A stretch of 64,000 nt of DNA from the NCBI RefSeq assembly GCF_024502345.1, contig NZ_JALDNN010000001.1, one strand, 5' to 3'. This DNA is from Escherichia coli (lineage in GTDB: Bacteria > Pseudomonadota > Gammaproteobacteria > Enterobacterales > Enterobacteriaceae). Position numbers and translations under genes: made by a program. Below, one piece after another: positions 8,453 to 45,365 of this stretch. The notes beneath the pieces are model-generated. The model did no database searches. It saw only the letters and a program-made list of their open reading frames with translations, and was not told the DNA's origin. The stretch's first letter is position 1. Every line of letters begins with the position of its first letter.

Positions 8453-9586
<1,134 letters not shown>

Positions 9587-24927: not shown

Positions 24928-26469
<1,542 letters not shown>

Positions 26470-26537
26470 CCTTAAAGAAGCGTTCTTTGCAGTGCTCACA
26501 CAGATTGTCTGATGAAAATGAGCAGTAAAACCTCTAC

Positions 26538-26614
<77 letters not shown>

Positions 26615-26656
26615 AATTTGCACGGCAAATTTGAAGAGGTTTTAACTACATGTTAT

Positions 26657-26732
26657 GGGGCTATAGCTCAGCTGGGAGAGCGCCTGCTTTGCACGCAGGA
26701 GGTCTGCGGTTCGATCCCGCATAGCTCCACCA
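26657..26732 (+). tRNA. alaU: tRNA-Ala (TGC anticodon)
   Basis: GGGGCTATAGCTCAGCTGGGAGAGCGCCTGCTTTGCACGCAGGAGG...CTCCACCA, 76 nt. Confidence 0.95.
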
Positions 26733-26915
26733 TCTCTGTAGTGATTAAATAAAAAATACTTCAGAGTGTACCTGAAAAGGTTCACTGCGAAGTTTTGCTC
26801 TTTAAAAATCTGGATCAAGCTGAAAATTGAAACACTGAACAACGAAAGTTGTTCGTGAGTCTCTCAAATTTTCGCAACACGATGATGGATCGCAAGAAAC
26901 ATCTTCGGGTTGTGA

Positions 26916-29818
<2,903 letters not shown>

Positions 29819-29910
29819 ACAACGCCGAAGGTGTTTTGGCGGATGAGAGAAGATTTTCAGCCTGATACAGATTAAATCAGAACGCAGAAGCGGTCTGATA
29901 AAACAGAATT

Positions 29911-30030
29911 TGCCTGGCGGCCTTAGCGCGGTGGTCCCACCTGACCCCATGCCGAACTCAGAAGTGAAACGCCGTAGCGCCGATGGTAGTGTGGGGTCTC
30001 CCCATGCGAGAGTAGGGAACTGCCAGGCAT
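29911..30030 (+). rRNA. rrfD: 5S ribosomal RNA
   Basis: TGCCTGGCGGCCTTAGCGCGGTGG...GGAACTGCCAGGCAT, 120 nt. Confidence 0.96.
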
Positions 30031-30042
30031 CAAATTTAGCGT

Positions 30043-30118
30043 GCTGATATGGCTCAGTTGGTAGAGCGCACCCTTGGTAAGGGTGAGGTCCCCAGTTCGA
30101 CTCTGGGTATCAGCACCA
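30043..30118 (+). tRNA. thrV: tRNA-Thr (GGT anticodon)
   Basis: GCTGATATGGCTCAGTTGGTAGAGCGCACCCTTGGTAAGGGTGAGG...CAGCACCA, 76 nt. Confidence 0.94.
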
Positions 30119-30155
30119 CTTTTTAGGTTAAAGTTCGGCAGATTAGAAAAGAATT

Positions 30156-30275
30156 TGTCTGGCGGCAGTAGCGCGGTGGTCCCACCTGACCCCATGCCGA
30201 ACTCAGAAGTGAAACGCCGTAGCGCCGATGGTAGTGTGGGGTCTCCCCATGCGAGAGTAGGGAACTGCCAGACAT
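30156..30275 (+). rRNA. rrfF: 5S ribosomal RNA, second distal copy
   Basis: TGTCTGGCGGCAGTAGCGCGGTGG...GGAACTGCCAGACAT, 120 nt. Confidence 0.95.
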
Positions 30276-42228: not shown

Positions 42229-43113
42229 TTACTTTGCAATGAGATCGGGGTCAACTTCGCTTAACCGGCTTCGTTTTGACAGGTTGCCGGTCTTTCTTTT
42301 TTTCACTTTCGCCAGTTCTTCCGCAGAGTAATGCGACGCGACATCCAGCCGTCGAAGCCCCATTTTGATGTACTCGCTGTTGATCTCAATACCAATGAAT
42401 TTTCGCCCGCTGGAGACGGCTACGGCACCGGTAGTAAAGCTACCGGCAAACGGGTCGAGAACGATATCGCCTGGGTTGGAAGAGGCGAGAATAATGCGTT
42501 TCAGTAAGGCTTCCGGTTTTTGCGTCGGGTGGTTTTCATATTCATCCATCAAATAACGCACGCGCGGAAAATCCCAGACGTTACCCGGTACTTTTTGATG
42601 ATTGTAAGGCTGTGGAGGATTTTTGCGATAATCGATCAACGCGCGCTGCGATCCGGTTTTGGCTTCTACCAGAATAGCATCACCGTTGAACGTGTAGTTC
42701 TTTGCGTCTTTCACCATCATCAGGATGGGTTCATACATGGAACCGTAGTGTTTTTTCGCCTGCACTCCAGAACTGTCATATGACCAGACGATGCGACTTT
42801 TGATGGTAAAAAGCTTGCGGCACTGGAGATCGATAAAGGGCATGTTTTCCGTACTGTTCATGATGTACATGCTGCCCTGCTTTTTCAGAACGCGGTGGCA
42901 CTCTGCAATCACTTCAAACAGCCAGTCGATAAACAGATCTTCTTTCCAGGCTTCGATCAGACCATCAAAATTTTTACCGATGTTATACGGTGGGTCGGCA
43001 AAGATCAGATCGACGCTTTCAGTAGGTAGCTTTTTAAGTTCGGCAAGGGCATCACCGTGAATAATGGTCTTAGCTTCATTACCAAACCGGGTCGGTTCAC
43101 ATCCTGTTCTCAT
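42229..43113 (-). CDS. yhdJ: DNA adenine (N6) methyltransferase YhdJ
   Basis: ORF track; DPPY catalytic motif (IFADPPYNIGK); start set at ATG 43111-43113. Confidence 0.92.
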   Translation of the reverse strand: MRTGCEPTRFGNEAKTIIHGDALAELKKLPTESVDLIFADPPYNIGKNFDGLIEAWKEDLFIDWLFEVIAECHRVLKKQGSMYIMNSTENMPFIDLQCRKLFTIKSRIVWSYDSSGVQAKKHYGSMYEPILMMVKDAKNYTFNGDAILVEAKTGSQRALIDYRKNPPQPYNHQKVPGNVWDFPRVRYLMDEYENHPTQKPEALLKRIILASSNPGDIVLDPFAGSFTTGAVAVSSGRKFIGIEINSEYIKMGLRRLDVASHYSAEELAKVKKRKTGNLSKRSRLSEVDPDLIAK

Positions 43114-43132
43114 GGTCACTCCCTTTGTGACA

Positions 43133-43177
43133 CCTATAAAAAAGGCGCTTCCCCATGCCGAGTAGCGCCTTTTTAAT
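43133..43177 (-). terminator. Intrinsic terminator that in K-12-like genomes lies directly after fis; here on the far side of the insertion
   Basis: 8-bp stem AAGGCGCT / AGCGCCTT with 14-nt loop, T-tracts on both sides. Confidence 0.7.
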
Positions 43178-43197
43178 CAAGCATTTAGCTAACCTGA

Positions 43198-43214
43198 ATT
43201 AGTTCATGCCGTAT
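43198..43214. repeat. 17-bp direct repeat TTAGTTCATGCCGTATT, distal att-like copy
   Basis: 17/17 identical to 45069-45085, which is the fis stop codon plus last codons. Confidence 0.85.
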
Positions 43215-43382
43215 TGTAAAATACAGAGTCATTATACGTAATTTATTATCACTCTAGATAATTTGTATTCATCATAAATAATTGATGCGGAAAGAGATAT
43301 TTATTTTTTATTGGCTCGCATTGTATCATCAGTTATCAGTTACTCCCTGCATACAGTTGTCAAAAAGGTTGTCATTAACTCT

Positions 43383-43551
43383 ATGGCCGAAAATAAACTC
43401 TCAGATGTTCAATTGCGTGCGTTAACCCGCAAAGTCATCGAAAAACCTTTTGATGTTGCTGACGGTGGCCAAGTTGGGTGAAAACCTGCTATGCAGCTAC
43501 CGCATAAGGGTAGTGGATTCCGCTGAAATCTTGCCGTTCATCCGATCATAA
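43383..43551 (+). pseudogene. Tyrosine-integrase N-terminal (arm-type DNA-binding domain) fragment, frameshifted and truncated
   Basis: Hand translation: MAENKLSDVQLRALTRKVIEKPFDVADGGQVG-stop, then +1 frame LGENLLCSYRIRVVDSAEILPFIRS; resembles the EKPY..DG(N/G)GLYL...WxxRY pattern of P4-type integrase N-termini. Confidence 0.45.
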
Positions 43552-43575
43552 CATCACAACAGTTGTTGCCCATTA

Positions 43576-43606
43576 CCCTGGCGAATGCCGGGGCTTTTTT
43601 TATTTT
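43576..43606 (+). terminator. Candidate intrinsic terminator downstream of the integrase fragment
   Basis: Imperfect stem CCCTGG..CCGGGG followed by CTTTTTTTATTTT. Confidence 0.3.
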
Positions 43607-43619
43607 CAAAGTGACGCCT

Positions 43620-43923
43620 AGGTGTCATTAATTTATAAGGTGTCATGGTAGGTGTCATTGTTCTCAAGCCATAACCCGCAAGGGTTGCGACATTACTAAT
43701 GACACCTATGACACCTATGACAGCATTTTTAAAGAAAATAACGACCACTGTAATAATGTAACAGTGGTCGTTATACTTTATAGAAATGGGTGTCATGGTG
43801 TCACAGGTGTCATTCATTACAGTATCTTGTTTGTATTTTTCTTTAATAATCAGCGTGTTTCCCGCTATGACACCTAATGACACCTTTCCAACATAACGCC
43901 GTCATGGTGACATTAGGTGTCAT
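43620..43923. repeat. Array of 13 copies of the 9-bp motif AGGTGTCAT in both orientations
   Basis: Forward copies at 43620, 43638, 43650, 43789, 43797 (GGTGTCAC), 43805, 43906 (GGTGACAT), 43915; reverse ATGACACCT at 43699, 43708, 43717 (degenerate), 43867, 43877. Confidence 0.85.
43738..43774. repeat. Perfect palindrome with 14-bp arms and 9-nt AT-rich loop, at the centre of the motif array
   Basis: ATAACGACCACTGT-AATAATGTA-ACAGTGGTCGTTAT. Confidence 0.85.
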
Positions 43924-44274
43924 CGCCATCTGCTGCCAAAAAAGTCAAGGTACTTCCGAGGGGGGTACAGCCTGCGGGGGCATTGGTCCCGCGTAATTCG
44001 CGTTGTGCGTGCCCCTACAAAACTCACTTTATGATTACGTCAAGTAAATCAATCATTTATGTGAATCCTATCAAAGCACTGGCACCATACGTGCGCGATT
44101 GCAAAATAAAGCGAACACGTTTTACACACGCTGAATTGTAAAGATGTGTAAATATCGATTACGCCGGATTATGCCGGGTTATTTGCAAGTATTCAGGGTT
44201 ATAAGTTACTGATTTTACATTAAAAAGCTCACATTGTGGCTATTGTGTTCGGTCTGGTTACTGTATATCTTTAA

Positions 44275-44991
44275 GTCATTCCAGGCGATTTAGCTGGCCT
44301 GGCGCTGGCAGGTTATCAGATTTACCGCCATTGGGCTGGTGTGAAGGCTTTCTTTGGCGGAGTGGGTGAAGGCATCAAATCCGGGCTGGAACCGCTTAGC
44401 GACGCTCTGAGCCGCCTTTATGAACGCATGGGGCCGCTGAAACCTGTCATTGATGGTGTGGGTGCTGCGGTTAAGACGGTTTTCAACTGGTTCACGTCAT
44501 TGACCGAGCCGGTCAAGTACAGTGGCGAGGAACTGGATAAGGCCGGTAAAATGGGGATGACGTTCGGTAAGACCCTGGCGGCTGGCATCGAGCTTGTGAC
44601 CGCACCGATCACGTTCCTGATTGATAAGATTCTGTGGGTGTCTGACAACATCGGCAACCTGACCAACAAGGCACTGGAGTTTAAAAACGCCGTGTCTGAT
44701 GTTGCTGGTGGTGCGTGGCAGAAAACCAAAGATTTCTTTACCGCACCATTCCGCGACGATGTACAGCAGCCAGCAGCAACCACTGCCTCTGGTGCTGCCC
44801 TGCCGTCACCTGCACTGGCCAACCGCTCTGGTGGCACTACGGTGCATAGCAACGACCAGTACCACATCAGCGTGAAGGCAGAACCTGGTATGAATGAAGA
44901 TGCATTAGCCCGGAAGGTGATACAGCAACTACGACAGCAACAAGCAGTAAGGCAGCGAAGCATGATGATAGATGGCGCGCAAACACCATAA
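44275..44991 (+). pseudogene. 5'-truncated ORF, possibly a phage tail tape-measure-like protein C-terminal region
   Basis: Frame is open from 44275 (stop at 44272-44274) with no good start or RBS; Gly/Ala-rich and hydrophobic segments (GVGAAVKTVFNWF, ITFLIDKILWV); product guessed from composition only. Confidence 0.35.
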
Positions 44992-45068: not shown

Positions 45069-45085
45069 TTAGTTCATGCCGTATT
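45069..45085. repeat. 17-bp direct repeat TTAGTTCATGCCGTATT, fis-proximal att-like copy overlapping the fis stop codon
   Basis: Reverse complement encodes ..K-Y-G-M-N-stop of Fis. Confidence 0.85.
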
Positions 45086-45365
45086 TTTTCAATTTTTTAC
45101 GCAGCGTACCACGGTTGATGCCCATCATCAGCGCAGCACGGGTCTGGTTACCACGGGTGTATTGCATCACCATGTCCAACAGGGGCTGTTCTACTTCAGC
45201 CAGTACCAGCTCATAGAGGTCATTCACATCCTGACCATTCAGTTGAGCAAAATAGTTCTTCAGTGCCTGTTTAACCGAGTCACGCAGGGGTTTTTGGGTT
45301 ACCTGATCCTGAGAGTTAACGGTAGAAACGGTCAGTACGTCAGAATTTACGCGTTGTTCGAACAT
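45069..45365 (-). CDS. fis: DNA-binding nucleoid protein Fis
   Basis: ORF track 98 aa [51 protein letters not shown]... Confidence 0.97.

What the first reader, a model, noticed from the sequence alone, without database searches (positions are those of the whole stretch)
43955..44018. Isolated GC-rich, stem-loop-rich segment in the non-coding part of the element: candidate small structured RNA or protein-binding site
About 64 bp of GC-rich sequence (CCGAGGGGGGTACAGCCTGCGGGGGCATTGGTCCCGCGTAATTCGCGTTGTGCGTGCCCCTAC) sits in an AT-rich, ORF-free stretch (43924-44270). It has several possible local stems (GCGGG/CCCGC, CGCG/CGCG) and a GGGG/CCCC closing pair. It does not fit a tRNA.
Basis: seen in the sequence. 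Interest (0 to 1): 0.3.

Follow-up and report, generated by a model that had tools for sequence, protein, structure and literature searches.

The report
Phage packaging (cos) site in satellite remnant
The GC-rich segment is not an RNA gene but almost certainly the DNA packaging (cos) site of a decayed phage satellite, copied nearly base for base from the cos site of Jilinvirus phages, so it is an ordinary kind of feature that points to a helper–satellite pair I found no paper describing.

Summary
The quoted 63-nt string is real. It lies at 43956-44018 (start off by one), with 68% GC against flanks of 37-41%.

It sits in a 1.87-kb, doubly deleted remnant of a ~9.3-kb "fis PICI" satellite between yhdJ and fis. 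The att cores are at 43199-43213 and 45069-45083.

Window 43939-44011 is 97-99% identical to the spanin–small terminase intergenic region of Jilinvirus myophages (ECO1230-10, ep3, Bas97, PT1, ECOO78). The flanks are unrelated.

Three linear phage records (ECOO78, PPpW-3, KA2-1) place their ends on the same 13 nt (window 43977-43989, GGGGCATTGGTCC). These 13 nt are centred on a GCGGG/CCCGC dyad. The phage terminase is lambda-type (gpA/Nu1).

Intact satellites keep the site between an iteron origin and a late operon. That operon ends in a Jilinvirus-like tape measure gene. A variant lineage with its own TerS keeps only the left half plus the nick region.

The RNA reading fails three tests: no Rfam hit, folding no better than shuffles, and no covariation.

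Verdict: a cos site (confidence about 0.9), vestigial in this strain. It is a new member of a known kind. Interest is moderate.

The parts
43199..43213 (.). attL core of the fis-PICI remnant (TTAGTTCATGCCGTA, the reverse complement of the published fis att identity block TACGGCATGAACTAA)
   Evidence: Two exact copies in the window against 0 expected. The identity block is described in PMC10111431.
43383..43469 (+). 5' stub of the satellite integrase gene, ending at deletion junction 1 (43466-43469). int, alpA, an unknown ORF and the VapE primase-helicase are deleted.
   Evidence: Window 43001-43469 aligns to L011 2330-2798, then jumps to L011 6532.
43470..43551 (+). 3' end of a 74-aa satellite ORF that lies downstream of the primase in intact copies
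43576..43593 (+). Terminator-like hairpin plus T-run that closes the replication module
43619..43926 (.). Satellite replication origin: at least 10 iterons (AGGTGTCAT / ATGACACCT) in both orientations around an AT-rich hairpin with 28-nt arms (43724-43788)
   Evidence: The position just 3' of the primase gene in intact copies is shown. The variant lineage has different iterons at the same place.
43939..44011 (+). cos block: 73 bp shared at 97-99% identity with Jilinvirus phages, with unrelated flanks. This is the feature the finding refers to.
43949..43958 (+). Left-arm motif GGTACTTCCG (GGTMCTTCCG). It is conserved in E. coli, Salmonella, Serratia, Pseudomonas and Burkholderia phages, about 19 bp before the left nick. 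It is a cosQ-like candidate by inference.
   Evidence: Alignment A2, invariant and near-invariant columns
43974..43992 (.). cosN-like dyad GCGGG-N9-CCCGC, centred on 43983
   Evidence: Read from the sequence. The alignment consensus structure keeps only this helix.
43977..43989 (.). Inferred 13-nt cohesive end GGGGCATTGGTCC, with nicks at 43976/43977 and 43989/43990
   Evidence: A terminal 13-nt redundancy falls at the homologous position in the linear records of ECOO78 and PPpW-3. The start and left-end breakpoint of KA2-1 fall there too.
43990..44011 (+). Right arm (CGCGTAATTCGCGTTGTGCGTG) on the terS side of the nicks. It is inferred to be the binding region for the small terminase (Nu1-type), i.e. 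cosB-like.
   Evidence: It is conserved in phages up to TGCGTG. It is replaced in the satellite lineage that encodes its own TerS. The phage TerS belongs to the Nu1 family.
44047..44059 (+). IHF consensus match AATCAATCATTTA, +64 from the dyad centre. It may be a bending site that belongs to the satellite cos.
   Evidence: Five matches in 64 kb. The ZY22049-type flank, which is otherwise diverged, has one at +65. The whole Bas97 genome has none.
44292..44991 (+). 3' fragment (last 233 codons) of the satellite tape measure gene, following deletion junction 2 (~44291)
45069..45083 (.). attR core, overlapping the 3' end of fis
   Evidence: fis was identified by homology with annotated genomes.

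Best explanation
The segment is the cos site, i.e. the terminase recognition and cleavage site, of a phage satellite of the 'fis PICI' type that depends on Jilinvirus myophages.

How intact copies (~9.3 kb) would work is inferred by analogy with lambda, P2/P4 and cos-type PICIs:
- A helper infection leads to excision by Int/AlpA.
- The VapE primase-helicase replicates the element from the adjacent iteron origin.
- The helper's lambda-type terminase then acts on it. The Nu1-like TerS binds the right arm and the gpA-like TerL nicks both strands 13 nt apart, symmetrically about the GCGGG/CCCGC dyad.
- The satellite DNA is cut at cos and packaged into helper virions.

What is shown:
- near-identity to the phage cos region
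- the position of that region in the phage genome
- genome ends mapping inside it
- the dyad symmetry
- a cos-type terminase in the phage
- the conserved placement of the site in satellites

What is inferred: actual cleavage, the polarity of the overhang (5' by analogy with lambda), and the roles assigned to the left and right arms.

In this window the satellite has lost int, alpA, the primase and the late genes through two deletions. The site here is therefore a fossil that cannot support autonomous mobilisation.
For: 1. Window 43939-44011 matches the spanin-terS intergenic region of ECO1230-10 and ep3 (98.6%), Bas97 (97.3%), PT1 (94.8%) and ECOO78, at E about 1e-27, while the flanks do not align.
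2. The ends of linear records fall inside it. ECOO78 carries GGGGCATTGGTCC at both ends. PPpW-3 carries GGGGCATAGACTC at both ends. KA2-1 starts at GGGGCAGTGCCAC, and its other end loses homology right after the same 13-mer.
3. The 13-mer is centred exactly on the conserved dyad. The same centre holds in PPpW-3, KA2-1 and the variant satellite.
4. Bas97 TerL belongs to the gpA family (GpA_ATPase 2.7e-75, GpA_nuclease 2e-98) and TerS to the Nu1 family (2.3e-12). This is the lambda-type cos machinery.
5. The context is a PICI. The att block of fis PICIs is present. Intact copies carry int, AlpA, a VapE primase, an iteron origin, cos and a late operon.
6. The same phages are also the best matches for the satellite's tape measure protein (65% aa) and primase domain (66% aa).
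7. A natural dissection exists. The SUISSEKPC3NDM5-type lineage encodes its own TerS, whose C-terminal part is conserved with Jilinvirus TerS while the N-terminal DNA-binding part has diverged. Its cos keeps the left half (36/36 identical to Bas97) up to GCGGGGGCAT and has a right half found in no phage.
8. All 7 metagenome contigs and 64 of the 65 E. coli genome hits carry the site once. Every copy examined (4 annotated genomes and the 7 contigs) lies at the same place in a satellite.
Against: No experiment or read-level termini analysis is available. The cohesive ends are inferred from how three GenBank records were deposited, and the Arya record starts 4 nt further left. No paper found states the Jilinvirus cos sequence. 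How a 9.3-kb element is packaged by a 41-kb cos phage is unknown; it could be about 4 copies per head or a resized capsid. In this window the element is defective, so no current function can be claimed for this copy.
Confidence: 0.9

Rival explanations
1. The segment encodes, or is part of, a small structured RNA (an sRNA, a cis-regulatory leader or an antisense RNA), with the GC-rich stems as its functional structure.
For: An MFE fold of -28.4 kcal/mol exists on the + strand. The central hairpin GCGGGGG...CCCGC is retained in most homologues.
Against: There is no Rfam match in the segment, even at E<=10. Fold z-scores are -1.0 and +0.35. There is no covariation above shuffles, and the outer helix is paired in only 51% of cells. 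Conservation is at the level of primary sequence across phages of four genera, and phage genome ends map inside it. No promoter-like site faces it.
Confidence: 0.02
2. The shared block is a regulatory DNA site. An example would be the target of the helper's late transcriptional activator, which would let the satellite switch on its late operon together with the helper's packaging genes. On this reading it is not a cleavage site, or not only one.
For: In both phage and satellite the block lies upstream of, and co-oriented with, a late operon. Jilinviruses encode a late activator with an HTH. The dyad could equally be bound by a dimeric regulator.
Against: Genome termini map inside the block in three phages. 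The distance to the first downstream gene differs: about 105 bp in the phage and about 370 bp in the satellite. The phage's conserved TTGACA-containing stretch just upstream is not shared with the satellite. The lineage that has its own TerS has swapped exactly the right half, which fits packaging specificity rather than transcription. The two roles are not mutually exclusive.
Confidence: 0.05
3. The block is a neutral recombination scar, or a piece of a degraded Jilinvirus prophage, with no function in the element. Alternatively it is part of the adjacent replication origin.
For: The satellite shares other Jilinvirus-derived DNA, namely the tape measure and primase genes. It abuts the iteron array. 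The copy in the window is in a decayed element.
Against: The block is kept at 94-100% identity, at the same position, in all intact satellites examined. It is also kept in a lineage with entirely different iterons, where it is the only non-coding similarity (window 43926-43983 against L012). Its boundaries coincide with the phage cos core. The element has the int-alpA-primase organisation and att site of PICIs, not of a prophage.
Confidence: 0.03

Closest known systems
Phage lambda cos (cosQ-cosN-cosB with IHF site I1; gpA/Nu1 terminase)
   Same: The terminase families are the same: gpA ATPase and nuclease domains, and Nu1. The site lies immediately upstream of the small terminase gene. The nick sites are symmetric about a partial dyad. 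There is a conserved motif on the far side (cosQ-like) and a TerS-side arm. An IHF consensus lies about 65 bp to the right in the satellites.
   Different: The sequence is unrelated. The inferred overhang is 13 nt (GGGGCATTGGTCC) against 12 nt in lambda (lambda value from general knowledge). There are no obvious R1-R3-type repeats. The sub-site roles here are inferred, not tested.
Satellite P4 and helper P2: shared cos
   Same: A small integrative satellite carries a near-exact copy of the cos core of its myovirus helper and relies on the helper terminase (general knowledge of P2/P4).
   Different: The terminase type and cos sequence differ (19-nt ends in P2/P4). The element here has PICI organisation (int-alpA-VapE primase). 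No sid, psu or delta homologues were detected.
cos-type PICIs (SaPIbov5; E. coli EcCICFT073 with Rpp)
   Same: These are phage-inducible islands without terS that carry a helper-like cos between the replication and late modules. PMC10111431 notes this position for PICI cos sites.
   Different: The helpers described for E. coli PICIs are lambdoid siphoviruses (from memory). Here the cos, tape measure and primase similarities all point to Jilinvirus myoviruses. No Rpp-like or capsid genes were recognised. A sister lineage carries its own TerS plus a hybrid cos, which is closer to the SaPI TerS strategy.
fis PICIs (Mageeney et al. 2023, PMC10111431)
   Same: The att identity block at the fis 3' end is the same, as are the yhdJ-fis location and the Integration/Replication/Late zones with AlpA.
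   Different: In the passages retrieved, that paper does not describe the cos of this sub-lineage, its Jilinvirus affinity or its tape measure gene. The copy in the window is a 1.87-kb deletion remnant.

Membership tests
cos site of a lambda-type (gpA/Nu1) terminase system | Sequence identity with the site next to the small terminase gene of the packaging phage | tested here: met
   73 bp at 97-99% identity with the spanin-terS intergenic region of five Jilinviruses, with unrelated flanks
cos site of a lambda-type (gpA/Nu1) terminase system | The ends of the mature phage genome lie within the site and define a short cohesive end | tested here: met
   This is indirect. A 13-nt terminal redundancy or breakpoint falls at the homologous position in the linear records of ECOO78, PPpW-3 and KA2-1. 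Arya starts 4 nt away. No read-level or biochemical data are available.
cos site of a lambda-type (gpA/Nu1) terminase system | Partial two-fold symmetry centred between the nick sites | tested here: met
   The GCGGG-N9-CCCGC dyad centre (43983) is the centre of the 13-mer. The same centre holds in the diverged homologues.
cos site of a lambda-type (gpA/Nu1) terminase system | The cognate phage encodes a cos-type terminase | tested here: met
   Bas97 TerL: GpA_ATPase 2.7e-75 and GpA_nuclease 2e-98. TerS: Phage_Nu1 2.3e-12.
cos site of a lambda-type (gpA/Nu1) terminase system | Cleavage by terminase, and dependence of packaging on the site | not testable with these tools
   This needs virion DNA end mapping, in vitro cos cleavage, or transfer assays with cos deletions.
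fis PICI (Gram-negative phage-inducible chromosomal island) | Integration at the 3' end of fis, flanked by the identity block TACGGCATGAACTAA | tested here: met
   Exact copies at 43199-43213 and 45069-45083, against 0 expected. The block is as published.
fis PICI (Gram-negative phage-inducible chromosomal island) | Inward-pointing int, then AlpA, then a primase/replication module, then a late zone | tested here: met
   Met in the intact relatives E62, 0-4, ZY22049 and SUISSEKPC3NDM5.
fis PICI (Gram-negative phage-inducible chromosomal island) | The copy in this window is an intact, potentially mobile island | tested here: not met
   Two internal deletions remove int (except 87 bp), alpA, the primase, the late ORFs and about 70% of the tape measure gene.
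fis PICI (Gram-negative phage-inducible chromosomal island) | Induction and transfer by a helper phage | not testable with these tools
   No experimental data were found. No paper links Jilinviruses with satellites.
Structured non-coding RNA | Match to a curated RNA family | tested here: not met
   No Rfam hit overlaps 43939-44018 at gathering score or at E<=10.
Structured non-coding RNA | Fold more stable than composition-matched shuffles | tested here: not met
   z = -1.01 (+ strand) and +0.35 (- strand)
Structured non-coding RNA | Compensatory changes that maintain the pairs across homologues | tested here: not met
   75.0% of cells paired against 74.0% in shuffles. Covariation score 0.140 against 0.138 (212/500 shuffles as high). 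The outer helix is 51% paired.
Rho-independent terminator / tRNA | GC stem followed by a T-run; or a cloverleaf | tested here: not met
   The terminator scan finds none in the segment. ARAGORN finds none.

The most novel reading that the evidence does not exclude
The cos identity, together with the Jilinvirus-like tape measure and primase genes, marks an undescribed satellite-helper system: a sub-lineage of fis PICIs that parasitises Jilinvirus myophages, a small and poorly characterised group whose lifestyle is called enigmatic. The family shows two packaging strategies side by side. One is exact cos mimicry without terS. The other is an own TerS with a hybrid cos whose right half is satellite-specific. 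These satellites also supply their own full-length tape measure protein, a tail component not found in satellites in the literature searched. If confirmed, it would also give the first definition of the Jilinvirus cos, with 13-nt ends.
Probability: 0.55. Interest if true: 0.55.

Novelty: new member of a known kind. Interest (0 to 1): 0.4.

Why it matters
For annotating this window, the analysis turns an "odd GC-rich hairpin" into a defined feature: a fossil cos site inside a deleted PICI.

More broadly, cos identity is a cheap way to assign helpers to satellites. Here it predicts that an E. coli PICI lineage, present in about 1% of complete genomes, is mobilised by Jilinvirus phages. One of these, HeidiAbel/Bas97, is in the public BASEL collection and could be used to test the prediction directly.

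The paired lineages, with and without their own TerS, amount to a natural dissection of which half of the cos is read by which terminase subunit.

The satellite-borne tape measure gene raises a separate question about how satellites manipulate tails.

Tried and rejected
- **Rfam.** I ran it at gathering score on the whole window and at E<=10 on 43400-44400. Only spurious miRNA-model hits appeared, on the iteron/hairpin region at 43685-43830. Nothing hit the segment.
- **RNA folding and covariation.** The segment folds no better than shuffles and shows no covariation.
- **tRNA, tmRNA and terminator scans.** All were negative.
- **Scan of 100,044 species-representative genomes** with CTTCCG-N13-CTGCGGGGGCAT. 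It gave 21 hits, all in unrelated MAGs (Bacteroidales, Clostridia and others). That is about the number expected by chance, so the scan was uninformative.
- **Literature on Jilinvirus termini or satellites.** No paper combines Jilinvirus, ECO1230-10, ep3 or ECOO78 with satellites or PICIs. The Francisella KIRK, BASEL and ECOO78 papers do not give cos ends. The PPpW-3 genome paper is not held. Two keyword searches were wasted on the generic words 'cos' and 'cohesive'.
- **Defective-prophage reading of the element.** I rejected it because of the att block, the int-alpA-primase order, the constant ~9.3-kb size, and the absence of any other Jilinvirus gene.
- **Function of the satellite's late ORFs** (294, 104, 54, 149 and 68 aa). 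There were no Pfam, PHROG or NCBIfam hits for any of them, and no PDB sequence hit for the 294-aa protein, the only one searched there. I did not pursue this with structure prediction.

Full report
**1. The observation**

The quoted 63-nt string is present once, at 43956-44018. Position 43955 is a T, so the stated start is off by one.

It is 68% G+C, against 41% for the left flank and 37% for the right flank. Only 0.36% of 63-bp windows in the 64 kb are as GC-rich.

No gene is annotated over the homologous stretch in any E. coli genome examined. ARAGORN finds no tRNA there.

Stems can be drawn (MFE -28.4 kcal/mol), but dinucleotide shuffles fold about as well: z = -1.0 on the + strand and +0.35 on the - strand. 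The description is therefore correct, but "stem-loop-rich" is no more than the base composition gives.

**2. Genomic context**

The window is E. coli chromosome. It contains an rRNA operon at 24928-30273, followed by acrEF, acrS, yhdU and yhdJ. yhdJ lies at 42229-43119 on the minus strand. fis (45069-45365), dusB and the following genes come next. These identifications rest on homology to annotated genomes.

Between yhdJ and fis lie two exact copies of TTAGTTCATGCCGTA, at 43199-43213 and 45069-45083, against 0 expected by chance. This is the att identity block (TACGGCATGAACTAA, the end of fis) that Mageeney et al. 2023 report for "fis PICIs". That is an abundant family of Gram-negative phage-inducible chromosomal islands (PMC10111431).

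Intact relatives in strains E62, 0-4 and ZY22049 are about 9.3 kb long. Their gene order is:
- an inward-pointing tyrosine integrase
- AlpA (PF05930)
- a 93-aa ORF
- a VapE-domain primase-helicase (PF05272)
- a 74-aa ORF
- a non-coding stretch
- five ORFs with no family match
- a 757-aa tape measure protein (PF10145; phrog_28, E = 2.8e-127)

The copy in the window is a 1.87-kb remnant with two internal deletions relative to E62:
- Deletion 1 runs from L011 2798 to 6532, with its junction at window 43466-43469.
- Deletion 2 runs from L011 7358 to about 11097, with its junction near 44291.

What remains is an 87-bp stub of int, the tail of the 74-aa ORF, the whole non-coding stretch, and the last 233 codons of the tape measure gene. 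No complete E. coli genome in the collection has the same remnant.

**3. What the non-coding stretch contains**

- A terminator-like hairpin lies at 43576-43593.
- At 43619-43926 there are at least ten copies of AGGTGTCAT/ATGACACCT in both orientations, around an AT-rich hairpin with 28-nt arms. This is an iteron origin directly downstream of the primase gene, the usual arrangement in PICIs.
- The GC-rich segment follows immediately.

**4. The key result**

Window 43939-44011 (73 bp) is 98.6% identical to Escherichia phages ECO1230-10 and ep3. It is 97.3% identical to HeidiAbel/Bas97, 94.8% to Salmonella phage PT1, and about 92% to ECOO78. The sequences on either side do not align.

In every one of these phages (genus Jilinvirus, subfamily Iiscvirinae) the match is intergenic. 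It lies between the last lysis gene (the Rz-like spanin) and the small terminase gene, about 105 bp upstream of terS. That is the canonical position of a cos site.

More distant relatives keep its core motifs, GGTMCTTCCG ... GCCTGCGGGGGCAT ... TGCGTG, in the same position. These are Enterobacter Arya, Klebsiella KA2-1, Serratia MQ-4, Pseudomonas PPpW-3, Burkholderia Mica and an IMG/VR contig.

**5. Genome ends**

Three independently deposited linear records break inside the block at the same place:
- ECOO78 ends with ...GCGGGGGCATTGGTCC and, at its other end, begins with GGGGCATTGGTCCCGC. The 13 nt GGGGCATTGGTCC are therefore present at both termini.
- PPpW-3 begins with GGGGCATAGACTC and ends with ...GCGGGGGCATAGACTC.
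- KA2-1 begins with GGGGCAGTGCCAC. Its other end loses homology immediately after the same 13-mer.

In window coordinates this 13-mer is 43977-43989.

It is centred on 43983. That is also the centre of the inverted repeat GCGGG (43974-43978) / CCCGC (43988-43992). The same centre holds in PPpW-3, KA2-1 and the variant satellite, even though their right arms differ.

Nicks placed symmetrically about a partial dyad are what a cosN site looks like.

One discrepancy remains: the Arya record starts 4 nt further left.

**6. The packaging enzyme**

Bas97 TerL carries the gpA ATPase domain (E = 2.7e-75) and the gpA nuclease domain (E = 2e-98). Its TerS matches Nu1 (E = 2.3e-12). This is the lambda-type machinery that makes cohesive ends.

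By analogy with lambda, I infer a 5' overhang and TerS binding on the terS-proximal (right) side of the nicks.

**7. Links between the satellite and these phages**

A whole-element search and a tblastn against the complete Bas97 genome show that the satellite shares only three things with Jilinviruses:
- the cos block
- the helicase part of the primase (66% aa identity)
- a full-length tape measure protein (65% aa identity; 757 aa against 785 aa)

These same phages are the best database matches for both proteins. That ties the island to this phage group and argues against a chance similarity.

**8. A natural dissection of the site**

Seventeen E. coli genomes match only the left part of the block. 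The example examined, SUISSEKPC3NDM5, carries a sister island at the same att site, with three differences.
- It has different iterons (ACTCGCCACCAC).
- It has its own small terminase gene. The C-terminal two-thirds of that TerS resemble Jilinvirus TerS, while the N-terminal DNA-binding part has diverged (42% identity overall).
- Its cos is 36/36 identical to Bas97/ECOO78 on the left, up to GCGGGGGCAT. It then switches to a right half that no phage in the collection has.

The pattern fits a division of labour. The left arm plus the nick region would be read by the helper TerL. The right arm would be read by TerS, which this lineage has replaced.

Between the two lineages, the left cos half is the only non-coding similarity in the whole origin-to-late region.

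**9. Distribution**

- 65 of 5426 complete E. coli genomes carry the block, once each, and 64 of those copies are chromosomal.
- All seven metagenome contigs with the core are satellites of this family, with the site in the same position.
- An IMG/VR contig is a 99.9% copy of the E62 island.
- The satellite polymorphisms in the left arm are CCGAGGGGGG, CCGGAGGGGG and CCGAAGGGGG. The same variants occur among the phages, which suggests continuing exchange or co-evolution.

**10. The RNA reading**

- Rfam gives nothing in the segment, even at E<=10.
- On a 13-sequence alignment the MFE structure is paired in 75% of cells, against 74% in column shuffles.
- The covariation score is 0.140 against 0.138 in shuffles.
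- The outer GGGG/CCCC helix is paired in only 51% of cells, because the CCCC lies outside the conserved block.
- RNAalifold keeps essentially only the central dyad, together with a short left-arm helix, with no covariation term in its favour.

Conservation is of primary sequence, as expected for a protein-recognised DNA site.

**11. Mechanism: what is shown and what is inferred**

Shown: the homology, the position, the record ends, the dyad symmetry, the terminase type and the conserved placement in satellites.

Inferred:
- On helper infection, intact islands excise and replicate from the iteron origin.
- They are then cut at this site and packaged by the helper terminase.
- The GGTACTTCCG motif (43949-43958) may act like cosQ.
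- The stretch 43990-44011 may act like cosB.
- An IHF consensus at 44047-44059 may serve as a bending site. It lies +64 from the dyad, and the ZY22049-type flank, which is otherwise diverged, has one at +65. The whole Bas97 genome has none.

How 9.35 kb fits a 41-kb head is unknown. Four copies would be about 90% of the helper genome.

In this window the island lacks int, alpA, the primase and the late genes, so the site here is vestigial.

**12. Comparison with known systems, and verdict**

The feature works like lambda cos, like the shared cos of P2/P4, and like the cos sites of cos-type PICIs such as SaPIbov5 and EcCICFT073. The element is a fis PICI.

The features I found no paper describing are the Jilinvirus affinity, the definition of the Jilinvirus cos, the two packaging strategies within one lineage, and the satellite-borne tape measure gene. 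The BASEL paper calls Jilinviruses poorly characterised.

Verdict: this is an ordinary kind of feature (a cos site), here a fossil, and a new member of a known kind. Interest is moderate because it predicts a testable helper-satellite pair.

Noticed in passing
window 43619-43926: Iteron replication origin of the satellite: at least 10 copies of AGGTGTCAT/ATGACACCT in both orientations around an AT-rich hairpin with 28-nt arms (43724-43788). It drew spurious plant-miRNA hits in Rfam. The sister lineage has a different iteron (ACTCGCCACCAC, L012 ~8725-8990).
   Followed up: partly
window 44292-44991; intact in L011 9523-11796: The satellite encodes a full-length tape measure protein (757 aa) that is 65% identical to the Jilinvirus TMP (785 aa). 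The ZY22049 allele is only 43% identical. Only the last 233 codons survive in the window. I found no paper describing TMP-encoding E. coli PICIs, and its role is unknown.
   Followed up: partly
window 43466-43469 and ~44291: Two internal deletions reduce the ~9.3-kb island to 1.87 kb, yet both att cores, the origin and cos survive. None of the 5426 complete E. coli genomes has the same remnant.
   Followed up: yes
window 44047-44059 (also 43175-43187); L004 12785-12797: There is a perfect IHF consensus (WATCAANNNNTTR) at +64 from the cos dyad. The ZY22049-type flank, which is otherwise diverged, has one at +65. The whole Bas97 phage genome has none. A further match lies 12 bp outside attL.
   Followed up: partly
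window 44160-44202: Three direct repeats of TAYGCCGGRTTAT lie in the non-coding region upstream of the (deleted) late operon. They may be a regulator-binding array. The ZY22049-type flank does not have them.
   Followed up: no
L012 4914-14399 (E. coli SUISSEKPC3NDM5; 17 genomes show the same partial cos match): A sister fis-PICI lineage has its own Nu1-like TerS (L012 10555-11034) and a hybrid cos. The left half is identical to the phage, and the right half is found in no phage.
   Followed up: partly
L014 ~1530-1545 (phage Alux-21); L046 (phage KA2-1 3' end): The Alux-21 record lacks 4 nt (CGGG) exactly at the inferred left nick. The KA2-1 record carries 62 unrelated nt after the 13-mer. Both are probably assembly artefacts at cohesive ends, and they incidentally mark the nick positions.
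   Followed up: no
cos left arm, window 43944-43965, compared with L004, L013 and phage loci: Polymorphisms among the satellites (CCGAGGGGGG / CCGGAGGGGG / CCGAAGGGGG; GTCAAGG / ATCGAAGG) are the same variants seen among the ECO1230-10, Bas97/ECOO78 and PT1 phages. This suggests repeated exchange or co-evolution of cos between satellite and helper.
   Followed up: no
L011 7384-9501 (absent from the window): Five conserved satellite late ORFs (294, 104, 54, 149 and 68 aa) have no Pfam, PHROG or NCBIfam match. The 294-aa ORF, the only one searched against PDB sequences, has no match there either. They are candidates for capsid-size or helper-interference functions.
   Followed up: partly
E. coli genome collection: One of the 65 E. 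coli records carrying the cos block is a plasmid record. I did not examine it.
   Followed up: no
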